From: Candidatus Omnitrophota bacterium
GTDB lineage: Bacteria; Omnitrophota; Gorgyraeia; Gygaellales; Profunditerraquicolaceae
Reading direction: 5' to 3'
Assembly: GCA_016214325.1 (NCBI GenBank)
Contig: JACROS010000080.1
Location: forward strand, 1-39,101
Length of the DNA stretch: 39,101 nt
The translations under genes and the position numbers were made by a program. The notes below the pieces were generated by a model that saw only the letters and a list, made by a program, of their open reading frames with translations, ran no database searches and had not been told where the DNA came from. Positions 8,028 to 39,101 of the stretch are shown here, piece after piece. Positions within the stretch are counted from its first letter, which is position 1. Every line of letters begins with the position of its first letter.

Positions 8028-8035
8028 CCTGTTTT

Positions 8036-9412: not shown

Positions 9413-9448
9413 ATTAATTTTCTGTTTTTCATATTTGTTTTTGAAATG

Positions 9449-9613: not shown

Positions 9614-9675
9614 GCAAATAAAATTGAAACTCGCTTAAAAAACCATCAGATTCATTTATTTGATATAGGACTAGC

Positions 9676-10296: not shown

Positions 10297-10299
10297 AAA

Positions 10300-11210: not shown

Positions 11211-11214
11211 ATTT

Positions 11215-12006: not shown

Positions 12007-12008
12007 AA

Positions 12009-24948: not shown

Positions 24949-25385
24949 TGATTCAGCTTGATATACAGCAAATAATGGAAAGTATTTCGCAGAGATTTCC
25001 GATGCTGTTTGTTGACAGGATTCTTGAGCTTGATCCGGGGAAGCAGGTTGTAGCGATTAAAAATGTAACTATGAATGAGCAGTTTTTTTCGGGGCATTTT
25101 CCGGATGCGCCAATTATGCCCGGAGCTTTAATTGTTGAGGCAATGGCGCAGGCATCAACATTTCTTTTTTATGATCCGAATAAGCCGCAGCAAAAACTAG
25201 ATTTTTTTCTGGGAGTAATTAAAGATGCTCGTTTCTTTAGGTCTGTTGTTCCTGGAGAACAAATAAAAATAGTTGCGCAGAGTATTAGGCTTGCTGAGGA
25301 CAGCGCTTATGTTAAGACGAGTGCTACTGTTGATGATGCCAAGGTTTGTGATGCAGAATTGGTTTTTGTGCGGAGAAAGAAATGA
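24948..25385 (+). CDS. fabZ: 3-hydroxyacyl-ACP dehydratase, FabZ family
   Basis: RFPMLFVDRI, KNVTMNEQFFSGHFPDAPIMPGALIVEAMAQ. Confidence 0.88.
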   Translation: MIQLDIQQIMESISQRFPMLFVDRILELDPGKQVVAIKNVTMNEQFFSGHFPDAPIMPGALIVEAMAQASTFLFYDPNKPQQKLDFFLGVIKDARFFRSVVPGEQIKIVAQSIRLAEDSAYVKTSATVDDAKVCDAELVFVRRKK

Positions 25386-26481
25386 AGAGAATTGTTGTCA
25401 CTGGGCTCGGGGCAGTTACTTCTATTGGTTTGGGGTGGAAAGATTTCTGGGTTAATCTTTTAGAGGGAAGATCGGGTATTTCTAAGGTTACAGTTTTTGA
25501 TACTTCAAAACATGTAACGCATGTTGGAGGAGAAGTTAAGAACTTTCGTCCCGAAGATTTTATCCCAAGGACTAAGATTAAATATGTGGGCAGGGCCTCG
25601 CAATTGGCGATTGCTGCGACAAGAATGGCGTTATCAGACGCAAAGCTTGAAAAAGAATTCTATACTAGGGTAAGGACATCAGTTTGTTTGGGCACAACTA
25701 TGGGTGAAATCAGGTCTGTTGAAAATGCAGATCACTCTTGGATTAATTCTAGTAAAGATAAGCACCAGATTGATCCTTTTGAAGTGTATCGTTCTGCGGT
25801 AAATAATATTCCTTCAAATGTAGCGATTGAGTTTCACTTAAAAGGAAGGAATCGTATTTTTACTACCGCTTGTGCTTCAGGAAATTATGCTATAGGTTAT
25901 GGATATGATCTTTTGTGCTCTGATAAAACGGACCTTGTTGTTGCCGGCGGCTCTGATGCTTTTTCCTGGATAGCTTTTACGGGTTTTAATAAGGTAAGCG
26001 CAACTGCTCCAGAAAGGTGCCAGCCTTTTGACAAAAATAGAAAAGGCATGATTCCTGGAGAAGGCTCGGGTGTTTTAGTGCTTGAGAGCTTGGATTCTGC
26101 GCTTTTGCGGGGTGCGCCTATTTATGCAGAAATTTTAGGTTATGGTTTAAGCTGTGACGCTAATCATATGACCAATCCAAATCCCGACGGAGTAGCTGCT
26201 TGTATGCGCAATGCCATGCTTAATGCCGGGATAGTTCAATTAAATCTATGCTGGGCCATACCATGGGAGCAGCTTCGGCAATTGAGGCAATTACCTGTTG
26301 CCTTGCTTTAAAGGACCAGGTGCTTCCTCCGACGATAAATTACGAAACTCCGGATCCTGATTGTGATATAGACTGTATTCCTAATGCCGCTAGAAAGCAA
26401 AAAGTTGAGGTTATTTTAAATAATGGTTTTGCTTTTGGCGGGAATAATGCTTGTCTTGTATTAAAAAAGTTTGTCAACTAA
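25382..26481 (+). pseudogene. fabF: Beta-ketoacyl-ACP synthase II, split by an internal deletion/frameshift near 26233 (possibly artefact)
   Basis: TTACASG (catalytic Cys), GYGLSCDANHMT in ORF 25382-26311. [13 protein letters not shown]...FAFGGNN resumes in another frame at 26233; the AHGTxT segment is absent. Confidence 0.82.
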
Positions 26482-26496
26482 GAAAAGGAGGAAGCA

Positions 26497-26748
26497 ATGT
26501 TAGAGAATTTAGAAATGGAATTTAAGGAGATGTTATCAAAATTGACCGGCCTTGAGCCAACTGAAATTGGCGATGAGGATGATTTGTTTAAAGATCTAGG
26601 GATTGATTCTTTAAAGGTTATTGAGATTGCCACTCAGATTGAACGTAATTATAAGGTAGTGGTAAAAGATAGCCAGTTGGCGCGCCTGCGCACGGTAAAA
26701 GATGCGGTAACTTTTTTAAGGGACCTTTTGGAGAAAAAGAATGCCTAA
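26497..26748 (+). CDS. Acyl carrier protein
   Basis: 83 aa, acidic, DLGIDSL phosphopantetheine site, TVKD helix; AAGGAGG RBS. Confidence 0.93.
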   Translation: MLENLEMEFKEMLSKLTGLEPTEIGDEDDLFKDLGIDSLKVIEIATQIERNYKVVVKDSQLARLRTVKDAVTFLRDLLEKKNA

Positions 26749-28042
26749 AGAAAAAAGAATTGCCATCACAGGTATAGGCCCGCTTGCTTCCATTGGCACG
26801 GGCCGAAGAGAGTTGTGGCAGAATTTGCTCGCCGGTAAAACCAATATTAAACTGGATGAAGCCTATATTGATGATGAGCTTTGGGATAAATATCATTTTC
26901 ATAAGGTTGATAATTTTGATATTTCCCGCTTTGGCCTTGATAGAGGAGCTTTGGATTGGATTAAAGACTGGAAGCAGGGCGATGAAATAAAAGATTTATT
27001 GTATCTGCTGGCTGTGATTAAGCTTGCTATTGATGATAGCGGCTTGGTGTATAATCCAGATGCTGAAAGTGATTTTGGTTTGGTTTTAGCTCATGAAAAT
27101 ATGGCGCTGATTCCGTTTTTGTTTAAGGTCAGCGAAACCGCCTATAACATTATGAGTGATAAATCAAAACAGCTTACTAAAAAGAAGTTTTACGACGAGG
27201 TTTACCGGCTTTGCCTTAAGGCAGGTTATGACGTTCAGCCGTTTATGACTTTGTTTCATGTGGCAAAAGTTTTTAATGTCAGGCAGCATTCATTATTTAT
27301 TTGTAATGCTTGTGCTTCTGGGTTGTATGCTTTAGAAACTGCTAGTGAAATGATTCATAGTAACCAGAATTCTTCGGTTATTGTTGCGGCTTCTGATTTT
27401 CCGGATATTTATAAGTATTTATGGTTTAGGGATCTGGGAATTTATTCTAAGGATGGAATCTGCAGGCCGTTTTCCAAAGACAGTAACGGCCTTGTTTTTG
27501 GCGACGGCGGCGTTGCAATTGTGATGGAAGATATGGAACACGCAAAAAAGCGCAATGCTACGATATATGCGGAATATTTAGGTGGTGGTTTTGCGTTAGA
27601 GGGGTGGCAGGTTACCGTGCCAAAAGTAGGAAGTGATTCTTATCAGAACGCGATGTTAAAGGCGTTGGAACAAAGCAAGGTAAAGAAAGAAGAAATAGAT
27701 TTACTTTGCCCGCATGGAGTGGGTTCGCATGTTATTGATTATTATGAATCAAAGGCATTTACTGAAATTTTTGGTGATAATCCTAAAAAACCGCTTATCA
27801 CTGCATTTAAGCCTTATGTTGGGCATAATTTAGGAGGCAGTGCTCTGCTTGAAGTGGCGATTTTGTTGTTATGTCTTAGTAATGATACAATTTTACCTAC
27901 CCTTAATTCCAGCAATTCTAATCCCGCCTATAAAATCCAACTGGTGCAGAAAGTAAAAAAAGCCAAACTTAAAACGGTAATGAAGGCCTGTGCTGCCTTT
28001 GCCGGTTTCAATTCCGCGGTGGTATTTGGGAAAGCGTGGTAA
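26741..28042 (+). CDS. Divergent FabF/FabB-like ketosynthase with intact triad
   Basis: IAITGIG, NACASG (Cys), PHGVGS (His), KPYVGHNLGG (His), AFAGFN; unusual N-terminal half. Confidence 0.85.
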   Translation: MPKEKRIAITGIGPLASIGTGRRELWQNLLAGKTNIKLDEAYIDDELWDKYHFHKVDNFDISRFGLDRGALDWIKDWKQGDEIKDLLYLLAVIKLAIDDSGLVYNPDAESDFGLVLAHENMALIPFLFKVSETAYNIMSDKSKQLTKKKFYDEVYRLCLKAGYDVQPFMTLFHVAKVFNVRQHSLFICNACASGLYALETASEMIHSNQNSSVIVAASDFPDIYKYLWFRDLGIYSKDGICRPFSKDSNGLVFGDGGVAIVMEDMEHAKKRNATIYAEYLGGGFALEGWQVTVPKVGSDSYQNAMLKALEQSKVKKEEIDLLCPHGVGSHVIDYYESKAFTEIFGDNPKKPLITAFKPYVGHNLGGSALLEVAILLLCLSNDTILPTLNSSNSNPAYKIQLVQKVKKAKLKTVMKACAAFAGFNSAVVFGKAW

Positions 28043-28150: not shown

Positions 28151-28864
28151 ATGGATAAGAAATTACGCAATATTCAATTAGAAGTTTTGAAATTATTCTC
28201 AAATAAAGCAAAGAAGTTTGCTCTTTGCGGTGGCACTGCGCTTGAGTTATGTTATTTAGATCATCGTTTTTCTGTGGATCTGGATTTTTTTTCTCCTGAA
28301 TATGATGTTAAAGAAGTAGAAAAGTTGATTGCTTTTTTTGAGGAAAGGCTTAAAGTAAAGGTTAGGTTAGAGGCTGATTTTGTCAGGGCAGGAAGAGCCA
28401 GGATTAGGTTTTATACTATTCAATTGAGAGGGCAAAAGAGGCCGTTAAAACTTGATTTTGTTGAAGACGTCTTGATAAAAAGCCCTAAAATAAAAAAAAC
28501 CAATGGCATAAGGGCTTATTGCGCCAAGAATATTTATTTCCAAAAGATTGCTGCAGTAACAGGAACACAGTTTGAATTTGACCATATAGGAAGGCGAATT
28601 GCGCAGGGCAGGCAGGCAGCAAGAGATGTTTATGATATCTACATGCTTTCAAAGAAAATAATGCCTTTGCATTTATTCTTATCTATTGTGCCCGAGCAGT
28701 TTCGCCGAGGCATGGTTCATTGGTATAGATCTTTCTCTCGCAATGCGCTGAAGCTAGAGTTACTGGACCTTGATATTTACGATAAGAATTTTGATTCGCA
28801 AGAAATGATTCAATCCGTGGAAGATGAAATAAAATTGTTTGTGAGAAAAGGAATCCTTAAATGA
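28151..28864 (+). CDS. AbiEii/AbiGii-family nucleotidyltransferase toxin
   Basis: LCGGTAL..YLDHRFSVDLDFF, LKLDF, K..A, RDVYDIY. Confidence 0.88.
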   Translation: MDKKLRNIQLEVLKLFSNKAKKFALCGGTALELCYLDHRFSVDLDFFSPEYDVKEVEKLIAFFEERLKVKVRLEADFVRAGRARIRFYTIQLRGQKRPLKLDFVEDVLIKSPKIKKTNGIRAYCAKNIYFQKIAAVTGTQFEFDHIGRRIAQGRQAARDVYDIYMLSKKIMPLHLFLSIVPEQFRRGMVHWYRSFSRNALKLELLDLDIYDKNFDSQEMIQSVEDEIKLFVRKGILK

Positions 28865-29388
28865 AGATTGAAAAGTACTTTTGGAATTTGAGCGAAGCTG
28901 CATTAAATGAAACAAAAAAGATTATTAGAAAGCCAGCTCATCCTAGATTTGCCTCGGTTATGGTTAATTTTCTTTCAAGGTGCGATAAGCCGAAGGAATT
29001 ATTTTCTATTCTTTCCAGAGAAGAATTTGTTGCAAATTGGCCTCAGATTAGAAGGTATTGGGTCAAGGTGGAGCAGCAATCCGAGCTTAGAGATTGGTGG
29101 GAAACTATCTTTGAGCAGTTGTTGGAAGAACGAATGCAAAAACAGCTTAGGCCAAAAGGCGCGGCGCCGATTTTTTTAAAGGCAATCGGAATTCAAATTA
29201 GGCAAGCAAGGTTGGATAAAAAATTGAGCCAAAAAGATTTGTCTCTTATCGTTGGTATAAAGCAACCGGAGATATCTAAAATAGAAGACGGGAAGAAGAA
29301 TATTACGATTCTTACTTTGGCCAAGTTTTGCAAGGTATTAAAAATTGATAAAATTGATTTAACGAGTAGCCTTGGTGCCGGAAGATAG
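28861..29388 (+). CDS. XRE-family HTH protein with an N-terminal extra domain (probable antitoxin/regulator)
   Basis: C-terminal IRQARLDKKLSQKDLS..VGIKQPEISKIEDGKKN.T..TL; N-terminal YFWN/Trp-rich helical region. Confidence 0.82.
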   Translation: MKIEKYFWNLSEAALNETKKIIRKPAHPRFASVMVNFLSRCDKPKELFSILSREEFVANWPQIRRYWVKVEQQSELRDWWETIFEQLLEERMQKQLRPKGAAPIFLKAIGIQIRQARLDKKLSQKDLSLIVGIKQPEISKIEDGKKNITILTLAKFCKVLKIDKIDLTSSLGAGR

Positions 29389-29415
29389 AAGTCAATTTAG
29401 AATTAGGCTATTTTC

Positions 29416-29443
29416 TTGACAAAGGTTCAGGAAAGTGTAAACT
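29416..29443 (+). promoter_or_regulatory. Putative sigma70 promoter of the second TA operon
   Basis: TTGACA 29416-29421, 16 bp, TAAACT 29438-29443. Confidence 0.5.
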
Positions 29444-29464
29444 TATATTGTATGTGAATTCACG

Positions 29465-30286
29465 ATGTTTCCGAGAGATGGAAAAATGATAAAAGAAAAT
29501 ACAAGACAATATTTGAGCCCCAGGGAAAAAGAAATCATAGCAAGGCTTGCTTATGAAAAGGTTTCGCTTGTAACAATAGAGCAGTTTGACAGGTATTTCA
29601 GGCTTCCTGGAAGAGCGAGGGAAAAGATACTTTTTAGGCTTAACAAACAGGGTATATTAAAAAAGATAAAGAAAGGCGTTTATTTTTATTCTTCTCTTGA
29701 ATCAGGGCCGGCAGGAAGCAATATAAATGAATTTCTGATCCCGCAGGTTTTTTTCCCGGAAGGCAATTATTATGTTGGTTATGCAACTATGTATAATTAT
29801 TATGGTTTTACTGACCAACTTTTTCAGGTTATGTATATTCTTAACACTTCGTTGCAAAGGGAAAGGGCTATGGGTAGGCTGCGTTTTAAAATGGTTAAAA
29901 TTTCCCCAAAGCGGATGTACGGGCTTGAAAAGATCAAGGTTAGAGATGTGGATGTTATTGTTAGTGACAAAGAGAGAACTCTTGTTGACTTAATTTATTT
30001 TCCAGAGCCCGTCGGTGGCATGGGAAAGGCGTTTGAGATATTAAGAGAACAGGTAGATAACGATAAGATAAATATTAAGAAATTGATAAAATATTCTTTG
30101 AAATTTCCGGATAGCTCGACAATTAAAAGAATCGGATATATTCTTGAGAAAGCAGGCCTGAATGATAAAGTTCTTATGCCTTTGTTGAAGGTGGCTAAAA
30201 AGACATCGTTAATTAATCTCTATCCTTCAAAATCGCGTAAGGGTAAGATAAATGGGAGATGGATGGTAATTGAAAATGCTGCATAA
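29465..30286 (+). CDS. AbiEi-family type IV antitoxin/transcriptional regulator
   Basis: wHTH-like RLNKQGILKKIKKGVY, YYGFTDQ, VSDKERTLVD, KRIGYIL, W-x-V end; alternative ATG at 29486. Confidence 0.85.
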   Translation: MFPRDGKMIKENTRQYLSPREKEIIARLAYEKVSLVTIEQFDRYFRLPGRAREKILFRLNKQGILKKIKKGVYFYSSLESGPAGSNINEFLIPQVFFPEGNYYVGYATMYNYYGFTDQLFQVMYILNTSLQRERAMGRLRFKMVKISPKRMYGLEKIKVRDVDVIVSDKERTLVDLIYFPEPVGGMGKAFEILREQVDNDKINIKKLIKYSLKFPDSSTIKRIGYILEKAGLNDKVLMPLLKVAKKTSLINLYPSKSRKGKINGRWMVIENAA

Positions 30287-31148
30287 CGATAAAGGTGAAT
30301 TTATAAAAATTCTTGAAAGGACTTCAGCGCAGACGGGGTTCCCTCTGAGGCTTCTTGAGAAGGATTACTACATTACTGTGGTACTCTCAAAAATAAATAA
30401 GTTGAGCGGAGATCTTATTTTTAAAGGCGGAACGTGTTTAAGCAAAATTTATTATTCTTATTATCGTTTAAGTGAGGATATGGATTTTACCCTTAAACTG
30501 CCTGGTAATGCAACGAGGACAATCCGCAGCAATGCCATGAGGCCTATAAAGGAATTAATGAAATCTTTTCTTAAAGAATTTGGCATGAGCATAGAAGGTT
30601 TGGAGAGGGCGGGGCACAGGGAATCAACACAGTATATATTTTTCCTGGATTATAATTCAGTTGTGCTTAGCAAAAAGGAGTCAATAAAACTTGAAATAGG
30701 CTTGAGGTTTAATCCCGTTCTTTCGTCTGTAACAAAAAAAGTGAACCATAAGTTTTTGCATCCATTTACAAAAGAACCGCTTTTTGATGCTGGTTCTGTA
30801 AGTTGCCTTGCGGCAAAAGAGCTTGTCGCAGAGAAGTTGAGGGCTGCTGCGACGAGAGAAACAATTGCAGCCAGGGATTTCTATGATTTGGGTTATTTAT
30901 TAAAAGAAAAATTTGATTTTAAGGATAAAGTGTTTCTTTCGCTTTTTAAGAAAAAACTGGAAGAAGACAACTTTTCTCCTGATTTGGCAAAATACAAGGT
31001 TAATCTAGGCAGGACTGATAAGGAAATAGATGAAATGAAATCAAGGGTTGGGGATGAGTTGCTTTCTGTGCTGACCACTGATGAGCAGAAATCATTTGAT
31101 ATGCAGAAGATTTTGGATAAATTGAACAATGCGTTTGGCAACAAATAA
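30276..31148 (+). CDS. AbiEii-family nucleotidyltransferase toxin
   Basis: LLEKDYY, FKGGTCLSK.Y..YYRLSEDMDF, IKLEI, EKLRAA, RDFYDL; overlaps the antitoxin stop. Confidence 0.9.
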   Translation: MLHNDKGEFIKILERTSAQTGFPLRLLEKDYYITVVLSKINKLSGDLIFKGGTCLSKIYYSYYRLSEDMDFTLKLPGNATRTIRSNAMRPIKELMKSFLKEFGMSIEGLERAGHRESTQYIFFLDYNSVVLSKKESIKLEIGLRFNPVLSSVTKKVNHKFLHPFTKEPLFDAGSVSCLAAKELVAEKLRAAATRETIAARDFYDLGYLLKEKFDFKDKVFLSLFKKKLEEDNFSPDLAKYKVNLGRTDKEIDEMKSRVGDELLSVLTTDEQKSFDMQKILDKLNNAFGNK

Positions 31149-31172: not shown

Positions 31173-32579
31173 ATGGAAAAATACGATTACGACGCGATAA
31201 TTATTGGAGCAGGGATTGGAGGGCTTGTCTGCGGATGTTATTTGGCCAAGGCCGGCCTTAAGACGCTGATTGTGGAAAAAAACGCTCAGCCCGGCGGCTA
31301 CTGCACCTCTTTTACTCGCAACGGTTTTAAGTTTGATGCTTGTGTGCATTTTATTGGAAGTATGAGAGAGGGTGGAATAATAAAGAAGATTATAGGTAAT
31401 TTGGGTTTACAAAACGACATTTCAATTTTGAGAAATGATCCTTCTGATACAGTTTTTACCAAAGATTACAAGTTTTCGTTTTGGGAAAATATAGAAAAAA
31501 CAGTCAGCGAGCTTCAGTCCTGTTTTCCTTCTGAGAAAAAGTCTATTAAAGAATTTTTTAATTATATTTTAAAGATAGAAGGCTATGATTTTCTAGGTTT
31601 ACGTTGTAAAACGCTTCAGGATGTTTTTAGCAGTTTTTTTGTTGATAGACGATTGATGGCATTATTAGGATTTCCAATTCTAGGAAACTCTGGTCTTCCT
31701 CCTAGCCGAGTGTCTGCTATAAAGGCAATGACTTTATATAAAGAATTTATGGTTGATGGTGGTTATTATATGCCTAATGGTGTTCAGGTTCTACCGGAGG
31801 CGTTGGTGAAGAAAATCGTTGGATACGGTGGCACTGTTTTGTTTAATTCTCCAGTTAAGAAAATAATTGTTCGTAACGACAAAGCTGAAGGGGTAATTAC
31901 AAAACAAGGCACACAGTTTAGTTCTCGCTATGTTGTTTCAAATGCTGATACCCGACATACATTTTTTGACTTAATTGATCCTGATAATGCTCCAAAATTG
32001 TTGCAGAAGGCTTTGGTTGATTTGGAGCCATCTTTATCAATGTTCGCTTTGTATTTGGGAGTAAATGGCGAATTAACTAATTTCCCGCCTCATACAAATA
32101 TTTGGTATCTTAATGGCTATGATTTAGAAGATTATTATCGCTATAATCTTAAGGGTGATATAGAGGATATTAAATGGCTTTTAGCGTATTATAATCCTCA
32201 AGGTAAAACGATTCTTTGTTTTTTGAATGTCCCCTATGTTAATAAAAATTATTGGAAGGTTAATAGGATGAGAATTGAAGAACTTTTACTTAAGAAGATT
32301 GAAGAAGTTGTGCCTGGGACATTAAAGCATATTTGTTTCAAGAATAACGCAACTCCAGATACAATGTTGCGCTGGACTTCTAATTATCAAGGAGCTGCTT
32401 ATGGCTGGGCTGGGACTGTTGATCAATTCTCGGTCAGTGGCCTTTCTCAAATTACGCCAATAAAGAATTTATTTCTTACTGGTCATTGGACAACTTTGGT
32501 TCAGGGTGTTTCTGGTGTTATCTATTTAGGAGAGGTTACAGCAAAAACTATTTTGCGAGTAAAAGAGAAAAGACAATGA
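31173..32579 (+). CDS. Phytoene desaturase (CrtI)/RetSat-like FAD-dependent oxidoreductase
   Basis: IIGAGIGGL, EKN..PGGYCTSF.R.GF.FD, TP.T..R.T.N..GA.YGW, TPIKNLFLTGHW. Confidence 0.88.
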   Translation: MEKYDYDAIIIGAGIGGLVCGCYLAKAGLKTLIVEKNAQPGGYCTSFTRNGFKFDACVHFIGSMREGGIIKKIIGNLGLQNDISILRNDPSDTVFTKDYKFSFWENIEKTVSELQSCFPSEKKSIKEFFNYILKIEGYDFLGLRCKTLQDVFSSFFVDRRLMALLGFPILGNSGLPPSRVSAIKAMTLYKEFMVDGGYYMPNGVQVLPEALVKKIVGYGGTVLFNSPVKKIIVRNDKAEGVITKQGTQFSSRYVVSNADTRHTFFDLIDPDNAPKLLQKALVDLEPSLSMFALYLGVNGELTNFPPHTNIWYLNGYDLEDYYRYNLKGDIEDIKWLLAYYNPQGKTILCFLNVPYVNKNYWKVNRMRIEELLLKKIEEVVPGTLKHICFKNNATPDTMLRWTSNYQGAAYGWAGTVDQFSVSGLSQITPIKNLFLTGHWTTLVQGVSGVIYLGEVTAKTILRVKEKRQ

Positions 32580-34681
32580 ATATAGTAATATTGATTTCCG
32601 GTATTTTTATATCTTCTACTTCCATTGTTCTTATGGCATTGTTAAGAATTTATGGTAGAAATAAGTTACATACAATTTGGTTTATGACTAATCTCGTTAT
32701 ATTTGTTTGGGGATTAGGCTGTTTTTTTATTGGGAAGTCATCGTCTATAGAAGAGGCTCGTTTTTGGTGGGGAGTAGCAGTTGCTGCAGGTGTATTTATT
32801 GCTCCTTGTTTTTATCAAACTACTTATATTTTTGCTGGAGTTAAACAGCCAAAACGCTTAATAATCTCCTATCTGCAGGCTTCTTTGTTCGCGATATTGG
32901 CACTCTTTACAGAAGTAACTTTAAATAAATATAGGATTTTGTTTGGGAATGTTTATTATCCTACGGGTAATCTAATGTTTTTCTTAATGATTATTTGTTG
33001 GGTTATTGTTATATTCTTAGGCACTAAAGTACTCTTTGATTTGTTAAAAAGATCAACTGGAAAACAACATTTGCAGACGTGGTATTTACTAATTGCTTTT
33101 CTTAGTGGATTTGTTGGTGGTGGAGCTACGTTGCTTCCAGCTTTTGACCTTCCGTATTCTTTTGTTTATCCCTTCGGCAACTTCGGCGTTGCAATATATG
33201 CGATTATCGGTACTTATGCTGTTTTAAGATATCAACTTCTAGACCTAAATGTCGCCTTTACGCGAGCTGGGATATTTGGGGTTGTTTATGCTTTAGTTTT
33301 GGGAGTACCTTTCTGGCTTGGTTATAAATATAATAAGTGGCAGTATTCGACGTGGTTTATGTTGGTTTTGGCTACCTCTGGCCCGTTCATCTATAGCTAC
33401 TTGCGCAGGCATGCAGAGAATATAATCCTTAGAGATCAGCGAAGATACCAGAAGGCATTGCGCGAGCTTGCTGAGACCATGACTCATATTCGCTCCTTGG
33501 ATGCATTAATCCAGATTATCACCACTACTATGGTTAATGCAGTTAAAGTGAATTTTGCCGCAATGTATGTTAAGGAAGAGGAGAGCAATTCTTATGTTTT
33601 AAAAAGTTGTAATCCTCAATCTGTGCAGGATAAATTTCCGGAAAATTTAGCTTTTGATTCTTCGGTTGTAAAATTTATTTTAGCTGAACAGCGCCTGATA
33701 ACTTGTGATGAGATAAAGAATAAGCCGGAAATTCCCTTAGAATGCGGTTTAGTGATTCCTTGTTTTATGGAAAATGACCTTTTGGCATTTATTGCCTTAG
33801 GGACAAAACCAAACAGCCAGATGTTTACCACCGACGATATCTTGGTTTTTGAAACCGTGTCTTATTCAGCGAGTATTGCTATTGAGAATTGCCGTTTTTG
33901 GCGCGAGATTGAAGATAAGCAAAGAAAGGCTCGTCTTCAGGAGATGGATACGTATTCATATTCTCTGGCGCATGAAATTGATAATCCAGTGCATATAATT
34001 CTTAACGAAACCACTTTAATTAAAGACTATCTTTTGAAAAATATCACTAATCCTCAGGAATACAAAGAAGCAGAGAGTGCTTGTGGTTTTACTATTGAAG
34101 CTGCTCGAAGAGTAGCGGGAATGGTTAAGGCAATCCGCGATTTTGGCTCGCCGGTAACCGGCAAGGCTTTGGCTTTAAAAATTGAAGATGTGGTAGAGAG
34201 TTTTTTTAAACTTTATTATCCGCAATTTAAGGATAAGGCGATTGTATTTGAGAAAATCTTTTTTGGAGATCTAGGTTTTATTCGAGGGATAAAGCCTGAA
34301 TTAATGCAGGTGTTGGTTATCTTGGCGAATAATTCAATTCACGCTATGCGCGAGTCTGAAATAAAGAAAATTACACTTAAGGTTGAGCCGGTTAACCATG
34401 ACAGGATAAGAATTGTTTTCTCAGATACAGGATACGGAATTAAAAAAGAAAATCTAGAAATTATATTCTTGCCTTTTACTACTACCAAAGCTTCAAGTGA
34501 AGGCACAGGTATGGGCCTTTATAATGCCAAGAAGATTATTGAGCGCCATAACGGAAAAATATTTGCTCAATCAGAAGGAAAAGGCCAGGGCGCTTGTTTT
34601 GTAATTGAGCTTCCCAAAGCTCTGGATGTTACTGAGGATGAGTTTTTAAAAGAGGGCCAGAAAGAAAAGCGGTTAATTTAA
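32576..34681 (+). CDS. Sensor histidine kinase: multi-TM (HisKA_7TM-like) + GAF-like + HisKA + HATPase_c
   Basis: Hydrophobic N-terminal ~270 aa, H-box LAHEIDNP, N-box LANNSIHA, DTGYGI, PFTTTK, GTGMGL. Start moved to ATG 32576 (ATGA overlap). Confidence 0.92.
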   Translation: MNIVILISGIFISSTSIVLMALLRIYGRNKLHTIWFMTNLVIFVWGLGCFFIGKSSSIEEARFWWGVAVAAGVFIAPCFYQTTYIFAGVKQPKRLIISYLQASLFAILALFTEVTLNKYRILFGNVYYPTGNLMFFLMIICWVIVIFLGTKVLFDLLKRSTGKQHLQTWYLLIAFLSGFVGGGATLLPAFDLPYSFVYPFGNFGVAIYAIIGTYAVLRYQLLDLNVAFTRAGIFGVVYALVLGVPFWLGYKYNKWQYSTWFMLVLATSGPFIYSYLRRHAENIILRDQRRYQKALRELAETMTHIRSLDALIQIITTTMVNAVKVNFAAMYVKEEESNSYVLKSCNPQSVQDKFPENLAFDSSVVKFILAEQRLITCDEIKNKPEIPLECGLVIPCFMENDLLAFIALGTKPNSQMFTTDDILVFETVSYSASIAIENCRFWREIEDKQRKARLQEMDTYSYSLAHEIDNPVHIILNETTLIKDYLLKNITNPQEYKEAESACGFTIEAARRVAGMVKAIRDFGSPVTGKALALKIEDVVESFFKLYYPQFKDKAIVFEKIFFGDLGFIRGIKPELMQVLVILANNSIHAMRESEIKKITLKVEPVNHDRIRIVFSDTGYGIKKENLEIIFLPFTTTKASSEGTGMGLYNAKKIIERHNGKIFAQSEGKGQGACFVIELPKALDVTEDEFLKEGQKEKRLI

Positions 34682-34695
34682 TCGGAGGTAACAAG

Positions 34696-35088
34696 ATGAG
34701 TGATGCACCTTTAAAATTACTAGTGGTCGATGATGAAGAAGGTATAGTTGATTTTACTACAAGGATATATACTCGTAAGGGTTTTATTACATTTGGCGCT
34801 ACCGACGGGATAAAGGCAGTGGAAATATTTGAGAAAGAAAGACCTGGCATCAGCTTAATTGATGTGCACATGCCTTATTCGCCGATTGATGGCATTGAAA
34901 CTTTAAAGCGGATTAAGAATATTGATAAGAACGCCATTTGTATTATGGTTACGCGTATTACCGAGCAGGATACAGTGGCGGTTGCAAAAGAATTTGGCGC
35001 CAATGCTTATGTGCTCAAGCCTCTTGAGATGGAAGATTTGGATAAAGTAATCGCTGATGTTTTGAAAAAGGCCGAGGAGGCCAAATAA
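34696..35088 (+). CDS. Single-domain response regulator receiver
   Basis: LLVVDDE, phosphoacceptor LIDVHMP, MVT, YVLKP; no output domain; GGAGGT RBS. Confidence 0.93.
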   Translation: MSDAPLKLLVVDDEEGIVDFTTRIYTRKGFITFGATDGIKAVEIFEKERPGISLIDVHMPYSPIDGIETLKRIKNIDKNAICIMVTRITEQDTVAVAKEFGANAYVLKPLEMEDLDKVIADVLKKAEEAK

Positions 35089-35883
35089 ATGGCCAATCCT
35101 CTTCCTAATGAAAAAGAGCTTTATAAGAAAATCTATAGAGAGCGTATTTCTATGGATCCGCAAGTATGGGATCTTTTGTATAATCGGGTTGGTGATGACA
35201 TTACTACAATTAATTTATTGTGCCAACTGCATCTTTGTGATTGCCAGCCGATTCCGGTGCAGGAGGCAAGAAAGATTCTTACCTACACTCGGCATATAAA
35301 AGAATTATTGTCGCATATTACTAATATCTCCGACGATAATCAAAAAACTTTTCCTGTATTTGTAGGAACGGTGCCTTTGCATTCAATTTTGCGGGAGATG
35401 TTTACCCATTATATAGGAAATGATATTTATATGATTAATCTAATAGTAGAAGATGCCACTGATCCTATGCAGCCTGAGCCGCTTTCTGTTGCCTCAACCC
35501 AGAAAATTCTCAATCATACTCGTAGTATACGTGATTTTATGGATAAGCTCAGGCAGGCTACAATGCCCGGAGGAGTCCGGGTTACTGAAGATGATGAGCA
35601 GGAAACAAAAGATAAACCTAGCCTTGAGCTGGAGCTAACAAAGGAATCTGTTTTTGCGCGGGTTCGTAAGCTTTTGGCGCATGAATTTAATATGTCTGAA
35701 GAAAATATTCAGCTAGAGACACATTTTGCAAATGATTTGCAGCTTGATTCAGTTGATGCTATCCGTGTTGTAATGCTTCTTGAAGAAGGTTTTGGTTTTG
35801 AAATCCCCGACGATGATTATGAAGGAGTTGTGACAGTTGGCCAAGCTGTGGATTATGTATTAAAAAGATTAAAGGGTAACTAA
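35089..35883 (+). CDS. Fusion of two helical DHp-like repeats with a C-terminal acyl carrier domain
   Basis: Repeats at aa 22-77 and 97-154, acidic linker, then ACP fold (DLQLDSVD..VM.LEE.FGFEIPD...TVGQAVDY, Ser221). Confidence 0.8.
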   Translation: MANPLPNEKELYKKIYRERISMDPQVWDLLYNRVGDDITTINLLCQLHLCDCQPIPVQEARKILTYTRHIKELLSHITNISDDNQKTFPVFVGTVPLHSILREMFTHYIGNDIYMINLIVEDATDPMQPEPLSVASTQKILNHTRSIRDFMDKLRQATMPGGVRVTEDDEQETKDKPSLELELTKESVFARVRKLLAHEFNMSEENIQLETHFANDLQLDSVDAIRVVMLLEEGFGFEIPDDDYEGVVTVGQAVDYVLKRLKGN

Positions 35884-35907: not shown

Positions 35908-36549
35908 ATGGAAAAAGAAAATTTAGCCAGCTTAAAACAAAAGTTGCACGCGCTTTTAAATAAAGAAGCGCTAAAAAGAGGAAAATTTATTTTATCAAGC
36001 GGTAAAGAGAGTAATTATTATCTTGATGGAAGAGTGATTACTTTAACTCCGGAAGGCGCGTATTTGGTTGGGAGTATTATTTTAGAAATGACTAATCAGG
36101 ATAAGCTGGATGCAATTGGCGGCCCGACATTAGGAGCAGATCCGATTGTAGGAGCAGTTGCTTGTTTGGCTCATCTTAAAAATATTCCCATTAAAACATT
36201 TATCGTGCGTAAAGCTGCCAAGGAGCATGGTACTCAGCGCCAAGTTGAAGGGCCGGCATTAAAAGAAAAAGCCCGCGTAGTTTTGGTTGATGATGTGGCA
36301 ACGACGGGTAAAGCGCTTATCGAGGCTAAGCAGGCGCTTGATAAAATTGGGGTTATTGCTGAGAAAGCAATTGTAATTGTTGACTGCAATGAGGGCGGGG
36401 CAGAAAATTTAGCCAAAGTCGGCCTTAAATTAGAATCAATCTCTCGTCATTGTCAGGATCGTGATAAGCCAAGTTCGTCATTGCGAGGAGCGCGAAGCGC
36501 GACGAAGCAATCTCTTTTATGTCTGAACATCAAAGTTACGTCTACTTAA
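35908..36549 (+). CDS. pyrE: Orotate phosphoribosyltransferase; native C-terminus replaced by read-through into REP-like DNA
   Basis: G.FILSSGKESNYYLD, GGPTLGADP, VRK..KEHG, VDDVATTG; family-like sequence ends at LESI (~36441). Confidence 0.92.
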   Translation: MEKENLASLKQKLHALLNKEALKRGKFILSSGKESNYYLDGRVITLTPEGAYLVGSIILEMTNQDKLDAIGGPTLGADPIVGAVACLAHLKNIPIKTFIVRKAAKEHGTQRQVEGPALKEKARVVLVDDVATTGKALIEAKQALDKIGVIAEKAIVIVDCNEGGAENLAKVGLKLESISRHCQDRDKPSSSLRGARSATKQSLLCLNIKVTST

Positions 36550-36877: not shown

Positions 36878-38038
36878 ATGACTATTGTTAAAAAGATTAT
36901 TGTTATTGGAGGTGGGCCGGCAGGGATGATGGCTGCAATTCGCGCCGGCCAACTGCACCAGCAAGTTGTTCTTCTTGAGAAAAATGCTGGTTTAGGAAAG
37001 AAGCTTCTTTTAAGCGGAAAGGGTAGATGCAATTTAACTAATGCCTGTAGTCTTGAGGAGTTTTTGGCGCGTTTTTCTAAAAACGGGCAGTTTTTAAGGG
37101 ATGCTTTTAAGAAATTCTTCAACCAGGACTTGATGAATTTCTTTGAAGAAAGAGGCTTGCCTGTAAAAGTAGAAAGGCAAATGCGGGTGTTTCCCGTATC
37201 GGACAGATCAGCTAGTGTTCTTGAGGTTCTGGAAAAAGAATTAATTAAGAATAAAGTGGAGATAATTTTTAAGGCTAAAATAAAGAACTTATCTATTGTA
37301 GACAATAAGGTTAGGGGTTTGTATTTGGCTGGGGATGAGTTTATCTTGGCTGATAGAATAATTATTGCTACCGGAGGGATTTCTTTTGCGATTACCGGGT
37401 CTACGGGTGATGGTTTTGAATTTGCGCGTAAACTTGGGCATGCGGTTACAGCGCTTGCTCCGGGAAATAGAGAGATTGTTTCTGAAATCGGAGAATTGTT
37501 GTTTACTTTTTTTGGGATTTCCGGCCCGTTGGTTTTAACTTTAAGCGGCAAGATAGTTAATTGGTTAAATGAAAATAAAAAAGTTTATGCCCAGATAGAT
37601 TTAAAGCCTGGATTATCAAAAGAGCAATTGAATAATCGTTTATTGCGTGAATTTAGCGCGAATCCGAGGAAAAATATAAAGAATGTGTTAAAAGGATTGC
37701 TGCCCTTAAGGCTTGTGGATGTTTTTCTTGAAATTGCAAAGATTAATCCTGAGATCAGGGTAAATCAAATTAGCCGGCAGGCGCGCGAAGGAATAGTTGA
37801 TCTTTTAAAAGCTTTTCGGCTTGATATTGCAGGTTCGCTTCCTCTTGAGGAGGCAATGGTTACGCAAGGAGGAGTTTCTTTAAAAGAAATAAATCCGCGC
37901 ACCATGGAATCTCGCAAAATAAAAGGATTATATTTTGCCGGCGAGATGATTGATGTGGATGCTGATACTGGCGGGTTTAATTTGCAGGCGGCATTTTCTA
38001 CTGGTTATTTAGCAGGAGAAAGTGCTGCATTATCATGA
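36878..38038 (+). CDS. HI0933/BaiN/YhiN-family flavoprotein with an apparent in-frame internal deletion near 37465
   Basis: GGGPAGMMAA, GKKLLLSGKGRCNLTN, ATGG, GELLFT..GISGP, VTQGGV, GEMIDVDADTGGFNLQAAFSTG. Confidence 0.92.
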   Translation: MTIVKKIIVIGGGPAGMMAAIRAGQLHQQVVLLEKNAGLGKKLLLSGKGRCNLTNACSLEEFLARFSKNGQFLRDAFKKFFNQDLMNFFEERGLPVKVERQMRVFPVSDRSASVLEVLEKELIKNKVEIIFKAKIKNLSIVDNKVRGLYLAGDEFILADRIIIATGGISFAITGSTGDGFEFARKLGHAVTALAPGNREIVSEIGELLFTFFGISGPLVLTLSGKIVNWLNENKKVYAQIDLKPGLSKEQLNNRLLREFSANPRKNIKNVLKGLLPLRLVDVFLEIAKINPEIRVNQISRQAREGIVDLLKAFRLDIAGSLPLEEAMVTQGGVSLKEINPRTMESRKIKGLYFAGEMIDVDADTGGFNLQAAFSTGYLAGESAALS

Positions 38039-39101
38039 GAAAAATATATTTGGCAAGTGATTCAAAGGCACGCAGGAAACTATTTCGGATTTTTGGTTTA
38101 AAGTTTCAGGTGATTCCGAGTAAAGTTGAAGAGAAGATGCATCCGGAGAAAATGTCTTATGCCGCATTAGCCAAGCACAACGCGCTTTTAAAGGCTAAGG
38201 CAGTTAGCCAAAAAATAAGAACTGGTGTTGTTGTTGCTGCAGATACAATTATTGTGCAGGATGGTAAAGTATTCGGGAAACCGAGTTCAATAAAGAATGC
38301 CAATTCCATGCTTAAGAATCTTTCACAAAAGCCACAGCATCTTTATACGGGTTTGGCAGTAATTGACACGGATAATCAGAAAATAAAAGTTGCAGTTGAA
38401 AAGACTAAAATTTATATGGATAAATTAAGCAGCTCCGAAATAAAAAATTATTTTAAAAATGTTTCTCCTCTGGATAAGGCGGGAAGTTTTGATATCCAAG
38501 GTCAGGGAGCGTTTTTTATCCGTCGGATTGAAGGTTGTTTTTATAATGTGGTGGGTTTACCGCTACGCCGGTTGTATCTTATGTTTAAGGAATTGGGGAT
38601 AAAAGTGTTTATGTTGTTGGTTTGCGGGTTGTGGTTTACGACATGTGTGTTTATTTCTGGATGCTCTACTGAATATAATATTGTTACTGGCCAGGAAGAA
38701 ACCTATTATTATTCTACTGATAGCGAGGAGAAAATGGGCCAGGCAATTGCCAAGCAGGTTGAAAAAGAATACAAAATGACTAATGACCCTTTGGTGCAAA
38801 AGCGGGTTGAAGATATTGGCAAGAAAATTGCTGCAGTTTGTGACAGAAAAGAAATTGATTATAAATTTAATGTGATAGAAGACGAAGAAGTAAATGCTGT
38901 TTCGCTTCCCGGCGGGTATGTTTATGTGAATAAGGGGCTGGTTGATAAAGTTGCCAATGACGACGAGCTGGCTGCGGTTTTAGCTCATGAAATTGGTCAC
39001 GTAGTTGCCCGCCACAGCATAAAGAAACTCCAGGCAATGCAGGCATATTCTGTATTAAGGATATTAATTGCCGCGGCGCCCGGTTCAGGTAATGCAGGCA
39101 A
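38035..39101 (+). CDS. maf: Maf-family nucleotide pyrophosphatase fused in frame to an M48 metallopeptidase; 3'-partial
   Basis: Hand translation from ATG 38035 (ATGA overlap): IYLASDSKARR, AADT, GKP, DKAGSFDIQG, NVVGLP; no stop; hydrophobic segment ending ISGC; NAVSLPGG, LAAVLAHEIGH (38986-39000). Absent from the ORF track because it runs off the window. Confidence 0.88.
   Translation, partial: MRKIYLASDSKARRKLFRIFGLKFQVIPSKVEEKMHPEKMSYAALAKHNALLKAKAVSQKIRTGVVVAADTIIVQDGKVFGKPSSIKNANSMLKNLSQKPQHLYTGLAVIDTDNQKIKVAVEKTKIYMDKLSSSEIKNYFKNVSPLDKAGSFDIQGQGAFFIRRIEGCFYNVVGLPLRRLYLMFKELGIKVFMLLVCGLWFTTCVFISGCSTEYNIVTGQEETYYYSTDSEEKMGQAIAKQVEKEYKMTNDPLVQKRVEDIGKKIAAVCDRKEIDYKFNVIEDEEVNAVSLPGGYVYVNKGLVDKVANDDELAAVLAHEIGHVVARHSIKKLQAMQAYSVLRILIAAAPGSGNAG

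What the first reader, a model, noticed from the sequence alone, without database searches (positions are those of the whole stretch)
35089..35883. Tandem DHp-like repeats fused to an acyl carrier domain, directly after a kinase-receiver pair
Seen: an internal duplication, MDPQVWDLLYNRVGDDITTINL..P.PV.EARKILTYTRHIKELL versus LHSILREMFTHYIGNDIYMINL..PLSV.STQKILNHTRSIRDFM. Repeat 2 has H107-x-I-x-N, resembling the kinase H-box HEIxNP; repeat 1 has Asn at that position. An ACP domain with intact DS221V follows an acidic linker. Inference: a single-chain pseudo-dimeric four-helix phosphotransferase (Spo0B/ChpT-like logic) with one live His, giving kinase -> receiver -> His107 and coupling phosphorylation to a phosphopantetheinylated carrier. 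This could supply the output the receiver lacks.
Basis: partly seen in the sequence, partly recalled or inferred. Interest (0 to 1): 0.85.

Follow-up and report, generated by a model that had tools for sequence, protein, structure and literature searches.

The report
Tandem-hairpin His domain fused to ACP
This gene encodes an undescribed Omnitrophota signalling domain, a duplicated helical hairpin with a conserved histidine that almost always follows a kinase and a receiver gene and probably passes phosphate onward, here fused to an acyl carrier domain whose role in signalling is unknown.

Summary
ORF 35089-35883 (264 aa) has an internal duplication: BLASTP E 3e-7, and profile-profile Prob 98.4%, E 9e-15. 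An acidic, disordered linker and an ACP domain with Ser221 follow. The gene starts one base after the receiver gene's stop codon.

The N-terminal 160 aa ("X") belong to a family with no Pfam or PDB sequence match. Every named source record is an Omnitrophota MAG or one binned as Planctomycetes. AF2 predicts a compact bundle of four long helices (pLDDT 88.9).

His107 is kept in 114 of 116 close homologues and 88 of 98 50%-identity representatives. Asn111 is kept in 116 of 116 and 92 of 98.

A single-domain receiver gene lies directly upstream of X in 30 of 32 assessable loci. Further intact receivers lie directly downstream in 11 of 31. X-REC-REC and X-PAS-GGDEF-HD-GYP fusions exist, as do single-hairpin forms of 84-94 aa.

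The ACP link recurs but is optional: 73 of 116 are fused, three single-hairpin loci have a separate ACP gene next door, and the Ser is lost in 8 of 73.

Best reading: a single-chain, DHp/HPt-like phosphotransfer module in a relay (about 0.5). A receiver phosphatase or a receiver~P adaptor are rivals. Homology to HisKA or Hpt is not shown. No chemistry was tested.

The parts
31173..32579 (+). CrtI-family FAD-dependent oxidoreductase, first gene of the operon
   Evidence: Pfam Amino_oxidase and NAD_binding_8. NCBIfam crtI_fam 134.7 bits, below its cut-off of 238. Its TGA overlaps the kinase ATG as ATGA at 32576-32579. A homologue lies upstream of the kinase in L037 (two copies), L039, L044, L050, L051 and L062.
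32576..34681 (+). Sensor histidine kinase (7TM, GAF, DHp with H-box AHEIDNP, HATPase_c). The ORF is open from TTG 32486; the likely start is ATG 32576.
   Evidence: Pfam HisKA_7TM, GAF_3 and HATPase_c. A 701-aa form is listed as the window's own protein. Many orthologues carry PF00512.
34696..35088 (+). Stand-alone receiver (REC) with an intact acceptor site
   Evidence: Pfam Response_reg 3e-21. D12, D13, D56, T89 and K108 are invariant in 8 orthologues. GGAGG lies 7 nt upstream of the start.
35089..35883 (+). The whole X-ACP gene (264 aa plus stop)
35089..35139 (+). Conserved N-terminal peptide MANPLPNE plus a short helix (aa 1-17)
   Evidence: M1, A2, N3, P4, L5 and E8 are at least 90% conserved in 116 homologues. 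The same N-terminus is kept in the single-hairpin forms. Helix 8-17 in the model.
35155..35322 (+). Hairpin 1 (aa 23-78; helices 24-50 and 57-78), motif N32-R-V-G-D-D
   Evidence: AF2 model. Repeat alignments.
35383..35562 (+). Hairpin 2 (aa 99-158; helices 99-123 and 134-158), motif H107-Y-I-G-N111-D112
   Evidence: AF2 model. Conservation counts.
35407..35409 (+). His107 codon (CAT), the candidate phospho-acceptor
35419..35424 (+). Asn111-Asp112 codons, invariant in 116 of 116 close homologues
35563..35634 (+). Acidic linker, disordered in the model (aa 159-182)
   Evidence: pLDDT below 50 for 163-182. Composition.
35635..35880 (+). ACP domain (aa 183-264) with Ser221 at 35749-35751
   Evidence: Pfam and NCBIfam. 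Foldseek. Tree placement. Codon check.

Best explanation
X (aa 1-160) is an undescribed signalling domain. It is a tandem duplication of a helical hairpin folded into one bundle of four long helices, in effect a covalently linked DHp-like pseudo-dimer that also resembles a monomeric HPt. It partners the stand-alone receiver encoded immediately upstream. The most likely mechanism is histidine phosphotransfer. The 7TM-GAF kinase would phosphorylate the receiver on Asp56, and the receiver would pass the phosphoryl group to His107 of X. His107 is inferred to be solvent-exposed and sits in an H-box-like H-x-I-x-N motif. From there the phosphate would go on to further receivers. These are encoded directly downstream in many relatives but elsewhere, or lost, in this genome. 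The ACP domain is a recurrent but dispensable appendage of this node. It is a paralogue distinct from the housekeeping AcpP. It may tie the relay to a lipid or polyene pathway: a CrtI-like oxidoreductase is in the operon, and KAS, FabA-like and ACP genes lie nearby. Shown here: the repeat, the predicted fold, residue conservation, gene order and domain architectures. Inferred: binding to the receiver, phosphotransfer, and any role of the ACP.
For: 1. Duplication and fold: BLASTP E 3e-7; hhalign Prob 98.4%; AF2 on the N-domain gives pLDDT 88.9, pTM 0.83 and four long helices. 2. Single-hairpin relatives of 84-94 aa keep the same N-terminus and an H-H-I-G-N-D motif. This is the expected dimeric precursor of a pseudo-dimer. 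3. In 62 diverse two-hairpin members (19-48% identical to the window's protein), the only columns at 90% or more are M1, W27, H107 and N111. H107 is kept in 114 of 116 and 88 of 98, and in all 11 multidomain forms. 4. Helical periodicity places H107 and N111 opposite the I109/I113/I116/V120 stripe, so they should be exposed. This is inference from the sequence. 5. Gene order over 33 distinct loci: a REC gene lies within 120 bp upstream on the same strand in 30 of 32 assessable loci. REC-REC or REC,REC genes lie directly downstream (after the ACP gene where it is separate) in 11 of 31 assessable loci. All 20 downstream receiver domains examined keep the DD, D and T/S positions; K-P or K-G is present in the 18 rows that reach that position. 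An X-REC-REC fusion exists, P0142. 6. The kinase is not hybrid. No canonical Hpt (PF01627) was found in this genome (84% complete) or in G155 (96% complete). 7. In the fold search that does not rely on Foldseek, CheA P1 HPt domains rank 3, 14, 19, 26 and 30 of 48,161 chains. The best is 1tqg: Z 11.3, rmsd 2.5 A, 105 of 105 residues aligned. 8. Protein-language-model look-alikes: 23 of the 30 best named clusters are small proteins whose family set is HisKA, carried by 10-39% of members in the clusters shown, score 0.96. 9. The best local hhalign match between X and the cognate kinase's DHp profile puts His107 on the kinase His.
Against: There is no significant sequence or profile similarity to HisKA. 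Pfam HisKA hits 1 of 62 members at E 0.028. hhalign gives Prob 3% and E 0.015 over 13 columns. There is no Pfam Hpt hit on the protein. PDB profile searches gave nothing below E 0.03. Foldseek against the PDB found only generic four-helix bundles with E above 0.06. VIA Z values of 9-12 fall in the range the tool itself calls common for helical bundles. The conserved His is on the third long helix, not the second as in HPt (position recalled). Ten of 98 representatives lack the His (Y, N, D, Q or P), while Asn111 is more constant. This window and its closest relative L044 have no receiver downstream of X-ACP. The X-PAS-GGDEF-HD-GYP fusions have no obvious phospho-acceptor after X. The kinase could also phosphorylate all neighbouring receivers directly, with no HPt needed.
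Confidence: 0.5

Rival explanations
1. X is a receiver-specific phosphatase. It would be a DHp-like or CheZ-like helical bundle that inserts the invariant Asn111, with His107 or Asp one turn earlier, into the active site of the receiver~P and speeds hydrolysis. This would set the lifetime of the signal.
For: Asn111 is the most constant residue: 116 of 116 and 92 of 98. It lies at His+4, the position of the N/T needed for phosphatase activity in HisKA kinases (recalled). Three of the 10 rows without His have Asp there, giving D-x-x-x-N, which is like the CheZ D-x-x-x-Q pattern (CheZ motif recalled). The cognate kinase itself has H-E-I-D-N. Adjacency to a stand-alone receiver fits a CheY/CheZ-type pair.
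Against: The acidic residue at His+1 of the HisKA phosphatase motif is Tyr or His here. A phosphatase does not explain the near-invariant His, the X-REC-REC fusion, or the position of X between receivers. Fusion of a phosphatase to PAS-GGDEF or ACP has no evident logic.
Confidence: 0.2
2. X is a non-catalytic docking or adaptor domain that reads the phosphorylation state of the stand-alone receiver. It would pass that state allosterically to whatever is fused or bound to it (ACP, PAS-GGDEF-HD-GYP, REC-REC), as the DivL pseudokinase reads DivK~P.
For: X is always N-terminal to variable output-like modules and always next to a receiver with no output. The N-terminal peptide MANPLPNE is extremely conserved, as a docking peptide would be. 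Ten of 98 members lack the His. The DivL precedent was seen only as a search listing and abstract (PMC4211667).
Against: A pure docking surface would not be expected to hold one exposed His and one Asn as the most conserved residues across 19-48% identity. The receivers placed downstream with intact acceptor sites suggest phosphate flow.
Confidence: 0.2
3. The N-terminal region is an accessory domain of a specialised ACP. It would be a docking or chaperone module for a lipid or polyene pathway. Its adjacency to the two-component genes would reflect only co-regulation.
For: A CrtI-like oxidoreductase is translationally coupled in the same operon. KAS, FabA-like, ACP and KAS genes lie 7-11 kb upstream. 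In G155, an ACP gene and an ACP-FabA fusion lie directly upstream of the oxidoreductase-kinase-REC-X genes.
Against: X occurs without any ACP in about 43 of 116 homologues, and with signalling domains instead. The link to the receiver (30 of 32 loci) is far tighter than the link to an ACP (12 of 33 loci) or to the oxidoreductase. Eight of 73 fused ACPs have lost the Ser.
Confidence: 0.07

Closest known systems
Spo0B (Bacillus sporulation relay) and ChpT (Caulobacter) DHp-type histidine phosphotransferases
   Same: The His lies on the first helix of a helical hairpin that forms a four-helix bundle. The protein is placed between two receivers in a relay (gene order). There is no ATP-binding kinase activity of its own. 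The ChpT description was seen as an abstract in the search listing (PMC3433190). Spo0B is recalled.
   Different: Spo0B and ChpT are homodimers of one hairpin plus a C-terminal CA-like alpha/beta domain. X is a single chain with two hairpins and one conserved His, has no CA-like domain, and shows no detectable sequence similarity.
HisKA DHp domain (PF00512) of the neighbouring kinase
   Same: Both have an H-x-I-x-N core motif (kinase H-E-I-D-N-P, X H-Y-I-G-N-D). In both, about 20 residues separate the His from a Pro-containing loop, and the second helix has the pattern I-L...I..F...L. Language-model look-alikes are small HisKA-bearing proteins.
   Different: There is no acidic residue at His+1 and no Pro at His+5. 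Profile comparison is not significant (Prob 3%). Pfam HisKA hits 1 of 62 members. X is not followed by a catalytic domain. It is a pseudo-dimer in one chain.
HPt domains (PF01627: CheA P1, Ypd1, ArcB-C)
   Same: Both are monomeric up-down-up-down four-helix bundles of similar size. CheA P1 structures are among the best whole-target structural matches (Z 9.0-11.3, rmsd 2.2-4.0 A). Both would shuttle phosphate between receivers.
   Different: The conserved His is on the third long helix, not the second, and the H-x-x-K-G type motif is absent (motif recalled; the glycine at H+4 in Ypd1 was seen in an abstract, PMC6341664). There is no Pfam Hpt hit. X shows a clear internal duplication, and I know of none in HPt domains (recalled).
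AcpP and type II acyl carrier proteins
   Same: The C-terminal 80 aa match PP-binding and the AcpP subfamily models. They fold like AcpP and keep D-S-V.
   Different: The score is below the AcpP equivalog cut-off (TIGR00517: 68.7 against 70.45). In the tree this ACP lies outside the housekeeping clade, which holds this genome's C97 ACP. It is fused to a signalling domain. The Ser is lost in 8 of 73 homologues.

Membership tests
HisKA / DHp (PF00512) | Significant match to the family profile | tested here: not met
   No HisKA hit on P0001 at E up to 0.1. One of 62 diverse members hits at E 0.028. hhalign against the cognate kinases' DHp profile gives Prob 3%.
HisKA / DHp (PF00512) | Helical hairpin with the His on helix 1, packing into a four-helix bundle | tested here: met
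   This is a prediction only. The AF2 model has helices 24-50/57-78 and 99-123/134-158, with pTM 0.83. His107 is on the first helix of hairpin 2. The bundle forms within one chain, not between two chains.
HisKA / DHp (PF00512) | H-box H-[ED]-x-x-[NT]-P (recalled consensus) | tested here: inconclusive
   His and Asn at +4 are conserved. Position +1 is Tyr or His rather than acidic, and +5 is Asp rather than Pro.
Hpt (PF01627) | Match to the Hpt profile | tested here: not met
   No Hpt hit on P0001 at E up to 0.1. Hpt is not among the 25 families listed of 65 for the 62 members; the other 40 were not shown.
Hpt (PF01627) | Monomeric four-helix bundle fold | tested here: inconclusive
   CheA P1 chains score Z 11.3, 10.2, 9.7, 9.2 and 9.0. 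The tool warns that Z under about 13 is common for helical bundles. Foldseek found no HPt at E up to 0.001.
Hpt (PF01627) | Phospho-His on the second bundle helix (recalled) | tested here: not met
   The conserved His107 is on the third long helix. His69 on the second is His in 84 of 116 close homologues and is not a conserved column in the diverse set.
Spo0B/ChpT-type phosphotransferase | C-terminal CA-like alpha/beta domain (recalled) | tested here: not met
   The C-terminus is an ACP domain or is absent.
Spo0B/ChpT-type phosphotransferase | Acts between two receivers | not testable with these tools
   Only gene order is available: REC upstream in 30 of 32 loci and REC(s) downstream in 11 of 31.
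Acyl carrier protein (PF00550) | Profile match above the cut-off and a D-S-x attachment motif | tested here: met
   42.3 bits against 20.8. D220-S221-V222. Foldseek TMt 0.81-0.92 to AcpP structures.
Acyl carrier protein (PF00550) | 4'-phosphopantetheinylation of the Ser | not testable with these tools
   Needs AcpS or Sfp loading and mass spectrometry.
Housekeeping AcpP (TIGR00517 equivalog) | Score above the equivalog cut-off and placement with fab-linked AcpP | tested here: not met
   68.7 against 70.45 bits. The 9 fused ACP domains form their own group (92/82 support) outside the 25-row clade that holds this genome's C97 ACP. The genome has four other stand-alone ACP genes.
CheZ/CheX/Spo0E-type receiver phosphatases | Helical protein presenting an amide (Q/N), with an acidic residue one turn away, to the receiver active site (recalled) | tested here: inconclusive
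   Asn111 is invariant and His107 (Asp in 3 of 98 rows) lies one turn before it. No sequence match to these families appeared in the Pfam scans.

The most novel reading that the evidence does not exclude
An acyl carrier protein is a built-in component of a His-Asp phosphorelay. The loading or acylation state of the ACP tethered to (or encoded beside) the X phosphotransfer node would gate phosphate flow from the 7TM kinase and receiver to downstream receivers. Conversely, phosphorylation of X could control access of the carrier to the co-transcribed CrtI-like oxidoreductase. That would directly couple membrane-lipid or polyene chemistry to two-component signalling through a previously unrecognised single-chain HPt family.
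Probability: 0.2. Interest if true: 0.85.

Novelty: new variant of a known kind. Interest (0 to 1): 0.72.

Why it matters
Histidine phosphotransfer proteins are the hardest relay components to find by sequence, and many genomes with orphan receivers appear to lack them. This family has 146 clusters at 50% identity and no Pfam, NCBIfam or PDB relative. Every named source record is annotated only as 'hypothetical protein' or 'acyl carrier protein'. If it is a phosphotransferase, it shows a third structural solution beside the HPt monomer and the Spo0B/ChpT dimer: a DHp-like hairpin duplicated into one chain with one active face. Its repeated fusion or adjacency to a dedicated ACP has no precedent that I could find. 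Full-text searches for ACP with phosphorelay, HPt or response regulator, and for Omnitrophota with two-component terms, found nothing relevant among the listed hits. This would give a concrete, testable link between carrier-protein chemistry and two-component signalling in an uncultivated phylum.

Tried and rejected
Housekeeping AcpP with a spurious 5' extension: rejected. The 160-aa N-region is conserved as protein in 115 database homologues and exists on its own. The genome has a separate AcpP-like gene on C97.

Assembly-specific fusion: rejected. 73 of 116 rows are fused, and they come from many sources.

AhpD/CMD-like relationship, suggested by the N-terminus matching PDB 2pfx (E 1.1 and 0.81): treated as chance. 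The family has no CxxC motif, and the match does not extend beyond the N-terminal region.

Direct BLASTP of X against the kinase's DHp region: not significant. E was 0.078 and the aligned segments were not the H-box.

Foldseek on the full-length model returned only ACP hits, so the N-domain was modelled alone. Foldseek on that model gave only weak generic bundles such as FAT and HEPN, with E above 0.06. Chain-based libraries cannot show a match to a two-chain DHp dimer, so likeness to a DHp dimer could not be tested by fold search.

Phylum scan with the full-length alignment A2: the ACP half matched ACP genes in 300 of 301 genomes, so that tally is uninformative. Among the listed matches, those covering the N-domain lie in 6 of 301 genomes: G000 twice, G297, G155, G296 twice, G221 and G241. 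A further 487 lower-scoring matches were not listed, and single-hairpin forms may have been missed.

Complex prediction of the receiver (A4, 8 rows) with X (A3): verdict 'weak support'. The median score was 0.40 (runs 0.36, 0.56, 0.40) and the best of 3 controls was 0.01. The partner's pLDDT was at least 78 and the runs agreed in at least 91% of their contacts. In the tool's calibration the mark was reached by 58 of 80 solved complexes and 2 of 110 mismatched pairs, but at 0.60 or under by only 7 of those 80 solved complexes and by both mismatches that passed. No interface was returned, so His107-Asp56 proximity could not be examined. I do not count this as evidence either way.

A search for a receiver pair in the window's own genome that matches the downstream receivers of relatives found only 41-47% identical receivers on C1 and C17, next to other kinases. 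No clear orthologue was found. The genome is 84% complete.

The literature searches were read as listings and abstract starts only. No paper was opened. Supplementary files were not consulted.

Full report
THE OBSERVATION

The ORF 35089-35883 (+) encodes 264 aa. Residues 28-74 and 103-151 align at 16 of 49 identities, E 3e-7. With profiles built from 62 diverse family members, the first hairpin matches the second at hhalign Prob 98.4%, E 9.3e-15 over 64 columns. The internal duplication is therefore real.

Pfam finds only PP-binding, at 191-257 (42.3 bits, cut-off 20.8). NCBIfam places the C-terminus at the edge of the AcpP models: two subfamily models are passed, and the TIGR00517 equivalog is just missed at 68.7 against 70.45 bits. 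D220-S221-V222 is intact. The linker is acidic and has pLDDT below 50 over residues 163-182.

The operon is tightly packed. The TGA of a CrtI-family FAD oxidoreductase overlaps the kinase ATG as ATGA at 32576-32579. GGAGG precedes the receiver gene. The receiver's TAA abuts the ATG of this gene, with GAGGAG 9 nt upstream. No terminator-like site beyond chance expectation lies inside the operon.

THE FAMILY

A word-indexed search with residues 1-180 returned 115 proteins. All that carry a source name are Candidatus Omnitrophota/Omnitrophica MAG proteins, called 'acyl carrier protein' or 'hypothetical protein'. They come in two sizes: 158-172 aa (X alone) and 253-275 aa (X-ACP).

An exhaustive profile search of 1.84 billion representatives found 146 clusters at E up to 0.001. 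These add further architectures:
- X-PAS(n)-GGDEF-HD_5: P0126, P0133, P0140, P0166, P0176
- X-PAS-GGDEF-PilZ: P0141
- X-PAS: P0150, P0157, P0186
- X-REC-REC: P0142

The same search also found 84-94 aa proteins with the same MANPL N-terminus followed by a single hairpin carrying H-H-I-G-N-D. Two distant members with names are again Omnitrophota.

A pattern scan of one genome per species found 28 loci. Twenty-three titles say Omnitrophota or Omnitrophica, four say 'uncultured Planctomycetales' or 'Planctomycetia', and one says only 'bacterium'.

In a sample of 301 genomes of the phylum, listed matches covering the N-domain lie in 6 genomes. Divergent forms may have been missed.

No Pfam family fits the N-domain. 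No PDB sequence relative appears.

CONSERVATION

In the 116-row alignment:
- His107 is His in 114 rows. The other two have Tyr107-His108.
- Asn111 and Asp112 are invariant (116 of 116).
- The repeat-1 counterpart, position 32, is Asn in 58, His in 30 and Gln in 11.

Across 62 two-hairpin members that are 19-48% identical to the window's protein, the only columns at 90% or more are M1, W27, H107 and N111.

Among the representatives, 98 of 147 rows cover the motif. Of these, His is kept in 88, Asn111 in 92 and Asp112 in 83. All 11 multidomain forms keep the His. The 10 rows without it have Y, N, D, Q or P.

The spacing of I109, I113, I116 and V120 marks the core stripe of the helix. H107 and N111 then fall on the opposite, exposed face.

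FOLD

AF2 with the family alignment gives pLDDT 81.7 for the full protein, with two independent domains. For the N-domain alone it gives pLDDT 88.9 and pTM 0.83, with helices at 8-17, 24-50, 57-78, 82-86, 99-123 and 134-158. That is two long hairpins in one compact domain.

Foldseek on the full model sees only ACPs. On the N-domain it sees only weak generic bundles.

The search that does not rely on Foldseek gives Z 8-12 to many helical bundles. CheA P1 HPt domains are among the best whole-target matches: 1tqg (Z 11.3, rmsd 2.5 A, 105 of 105 residues), 3kyj (10.2), 2ld6 (9.7), 1i5n (9.2) and 2lp4 (9.0). The tool warns that such Z values are common for helical bundles. I read this as 'compatible with an HPt-like bundle', not as homology.

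A two-chain DHp dimer cannot be matched by a chain-based library, so the pseudo-dimer idea rests on three things: the duplication, the existence of single-hairpin relatives, and the motif.

COMPARISON WITH DHp

The kinase H-box is A-H-E-I-D-N-P and X has T-H-Y-I-G-N-D. His, Ile at +2 and Asn at +4 are shared. In both, a Pro-containing loop follows about 20 residues after the His, and the second helix has the pattern I-L...I..F...L.

The best local hhalign alignment between the X profile and a profile of 120 cognate-type kinase DHp regions puts His on His. It covers only 13 columns, at Prob 3% and E 0.015.

Pfam HisKA hits 1 of 62 members at E 0.028.

The protein-language-model search lists small HisKA-bearing clusters as the family set for 23 of the 30 best named hits. 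The clusters shown score 0.96, and HisKA is on 10-39% of their members. This is a lead only. Homology to HisKA is therefore not shown. The likeness lies in motif and architecture.

GENE NEIGHBOURHOOD

I fetched 7 loci from the phylum sample and 28 from the species collection. I scored their ORFs with HMMs built here and removed duplicates, which left 33 distinct X genes including the window's. Related genomes are not independent samples.
- A single-domain receiver gene lies within 120 bp upstream on the same strand in 30 of 32 assessable loci. L059 and L061 are the exceptions, and L056 starts at a contig end.
- Where the contig reaches far enough, a 7TM-type kinase precedes the receiver.
- REC-REC or two REC genes lie directly downstream in 11 of 31 assessable loci: L042, L045, L049, L051, L054, L058, L062, L063, L066, L068 and L070. 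L056 has one after a 645-bp gap.
- All 20 downstream receiver domains examined keep the acidic pair, the acceptor Asp and the T/S position. K-P or K-G is present in the 18 rows that reach that position.
- The upstream receiver also keeps D12, D13, D56, T89 and K108.

The kinase is not hybrid. No PF01627 Hpt was found in this genome (84% complete) or in G155 (96% complete). Four other X-bearing genomes do have an Hpt elsewhere.

The order kinase-REC-X-REC-REC, together with the X-REC-REC fusion, is what a four-step relay with X as the His carrier would look like.

In this window and in its 94%-identical relative L044, nothing of the kind follows X-ACP. The next gene is pyrE. The best own-genome matches to the downstream receivers are only 41-47% identical and sit beside other kinases.

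THE ACP

The genome has six PP-binding matches. A maximum-likelihood tree of 45 ACP domains has few columns and many unresolved forks. In it:
- The 9 X-fused ACPs form one group (support 92/82).
- The three ACPs encoded directly after single-hairpin X genes (L063, L066, L067) form another group (94/91).
- Both groups lie outside the 25-row short-branched clade that holds this genome's C97 ACP.

The association of X with an ACP thus recurs in two forms: fused to the tandem-hairpin form, or as a separate downstream gene with the single-hairpin form. Together these make 12 of 33 loci.

The association is also dispensable. About 43 of 116 close homologues lack the ACP. Eight of 73 fused domains have lost the Ser, replaced by A three times, L twice, and P, T and K once each.

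One of the Ser-less forms is a second copy in this same genome. On contig C23 (L037), a 266-aa protein has D-L-P in place of D-S-V. It lies in a paralogous module of two oxidoreductases, kinase, REC and X-ACP, next to a secretin-TonB_C gene.

Lipid-type genes recur nearby. The CrtI-like oxidoreductase is present in 7 loci. An ACP gene and an ACP-FabA fusion lie upstream in G155. In the window, KAS, FabA-like, KAS, ACP and KAS genes occupy 23707-28042, separated from the operon by two AbiE pairs. What the ACP does in this setting is unknown.

VERDICT

X is a single-chain, pseudo-dimeric, DHp/HPt-like module that partners the upstream receiver and most likely accepts its phosphate on His107.

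I put this at about 0.5. No chemistry was tested and homology to known phosphotransfer domains is not shown. Ten of 98 representatives lack the His. Asn111 is even more constant than the His, which leaves a phosphatase (0.2) and a non-catalytic receiver~P adaptor (0.2) open.

The idea that the ACP is the output of the system is only partly supported. In the family as a whole, the downstream partners are mostly further receivers or c-di-GMP enzymes, and the ACP is an optional, sometimes Ser-less, companion.

The family itself has no name, no Pfam or PDB relative, and is close to phylum-restricted among the named records. I found no paper on it among the hits listed by searches.

The complex prediction gave only weak support and is reported under Tried and rejected.

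Noticed in passing
window 25382-26481: A fabF-like ketosynthase appears split. A 309-aa ORF holds only the N-terminal KAS domain, and a 77-aa ORF in another frame (26248-26481) holds the end of Ketoacyl-synt_C. This could be a frameshift, a pseudogene or an assembly error. It lies inside a KAS, FabA-like, KAS, ACP, KAS cluster at 23707-28042.
   Followed up: partly
window 28151-31148: Two AbiE-type toxin-antitoxin pairs lie side by side: AbiEii (28151-28864) with an HTH protein (28861-29388), and AbiEi (29465-30286) with AbiEii (30270-31148). They separate the lipid-type cluster from the oxidoreductase-kinase operon.
   Followed up: partly
G000 contig C23 (L037:3414-12112): The same genome holds a paralogous module: a T2SS-C-like gene, two CrtI-like oxidoreductases, a 7TM kinase, REC, and X-ACP whose ACP has D-L-P instead of D-S-V. 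A secretin fused to a TonB C-terminal domain follows it.
   Followed up: partly
L039 (G155:C1) 7639-13592: Where X is not fused to an ACP, an ACP gene and an ACP-FabA-like fusion sit directly upstream of the oxidoreductase-kinase-REC-X genes. A PilZ protein lies just downstream of X.
   Followed up: partly
window 38035-39099: One ORF joins a Maf domain (aa 3-186) to an M48 peptidase domain (aa 253-347). It runs off the end of the window.
   Followed up: no
L013 (G083:C3) and L018 (G255): The stand-alone 90-aa ACPs that group next to the X-fused ACPs in the tree (91/89 support). The L013 one lies between an AcrB/MMPL-type transporter ORF and a STAS-MGDG-synthase ORF; the L018 flanking genes were not examined. 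This is another ACP outside a fab context.
   Followed up: partly
window 35908-36549: The pyrE ORF (213 aa) has about 35 residues beyond the pyrE model's end. This tail overlaps the start of the GIY-YIG gene at 36519.
   Followed up: no
window 35089-35210 (aa 1-41): The conserved N-terminus MANPLPNE... weakly matches the N-terminus of PDB 2pfx, an AhpD-like 'peroxidase-related protein' (E 1.1 and 0.81). This is probably chance.
   Followed up: partly
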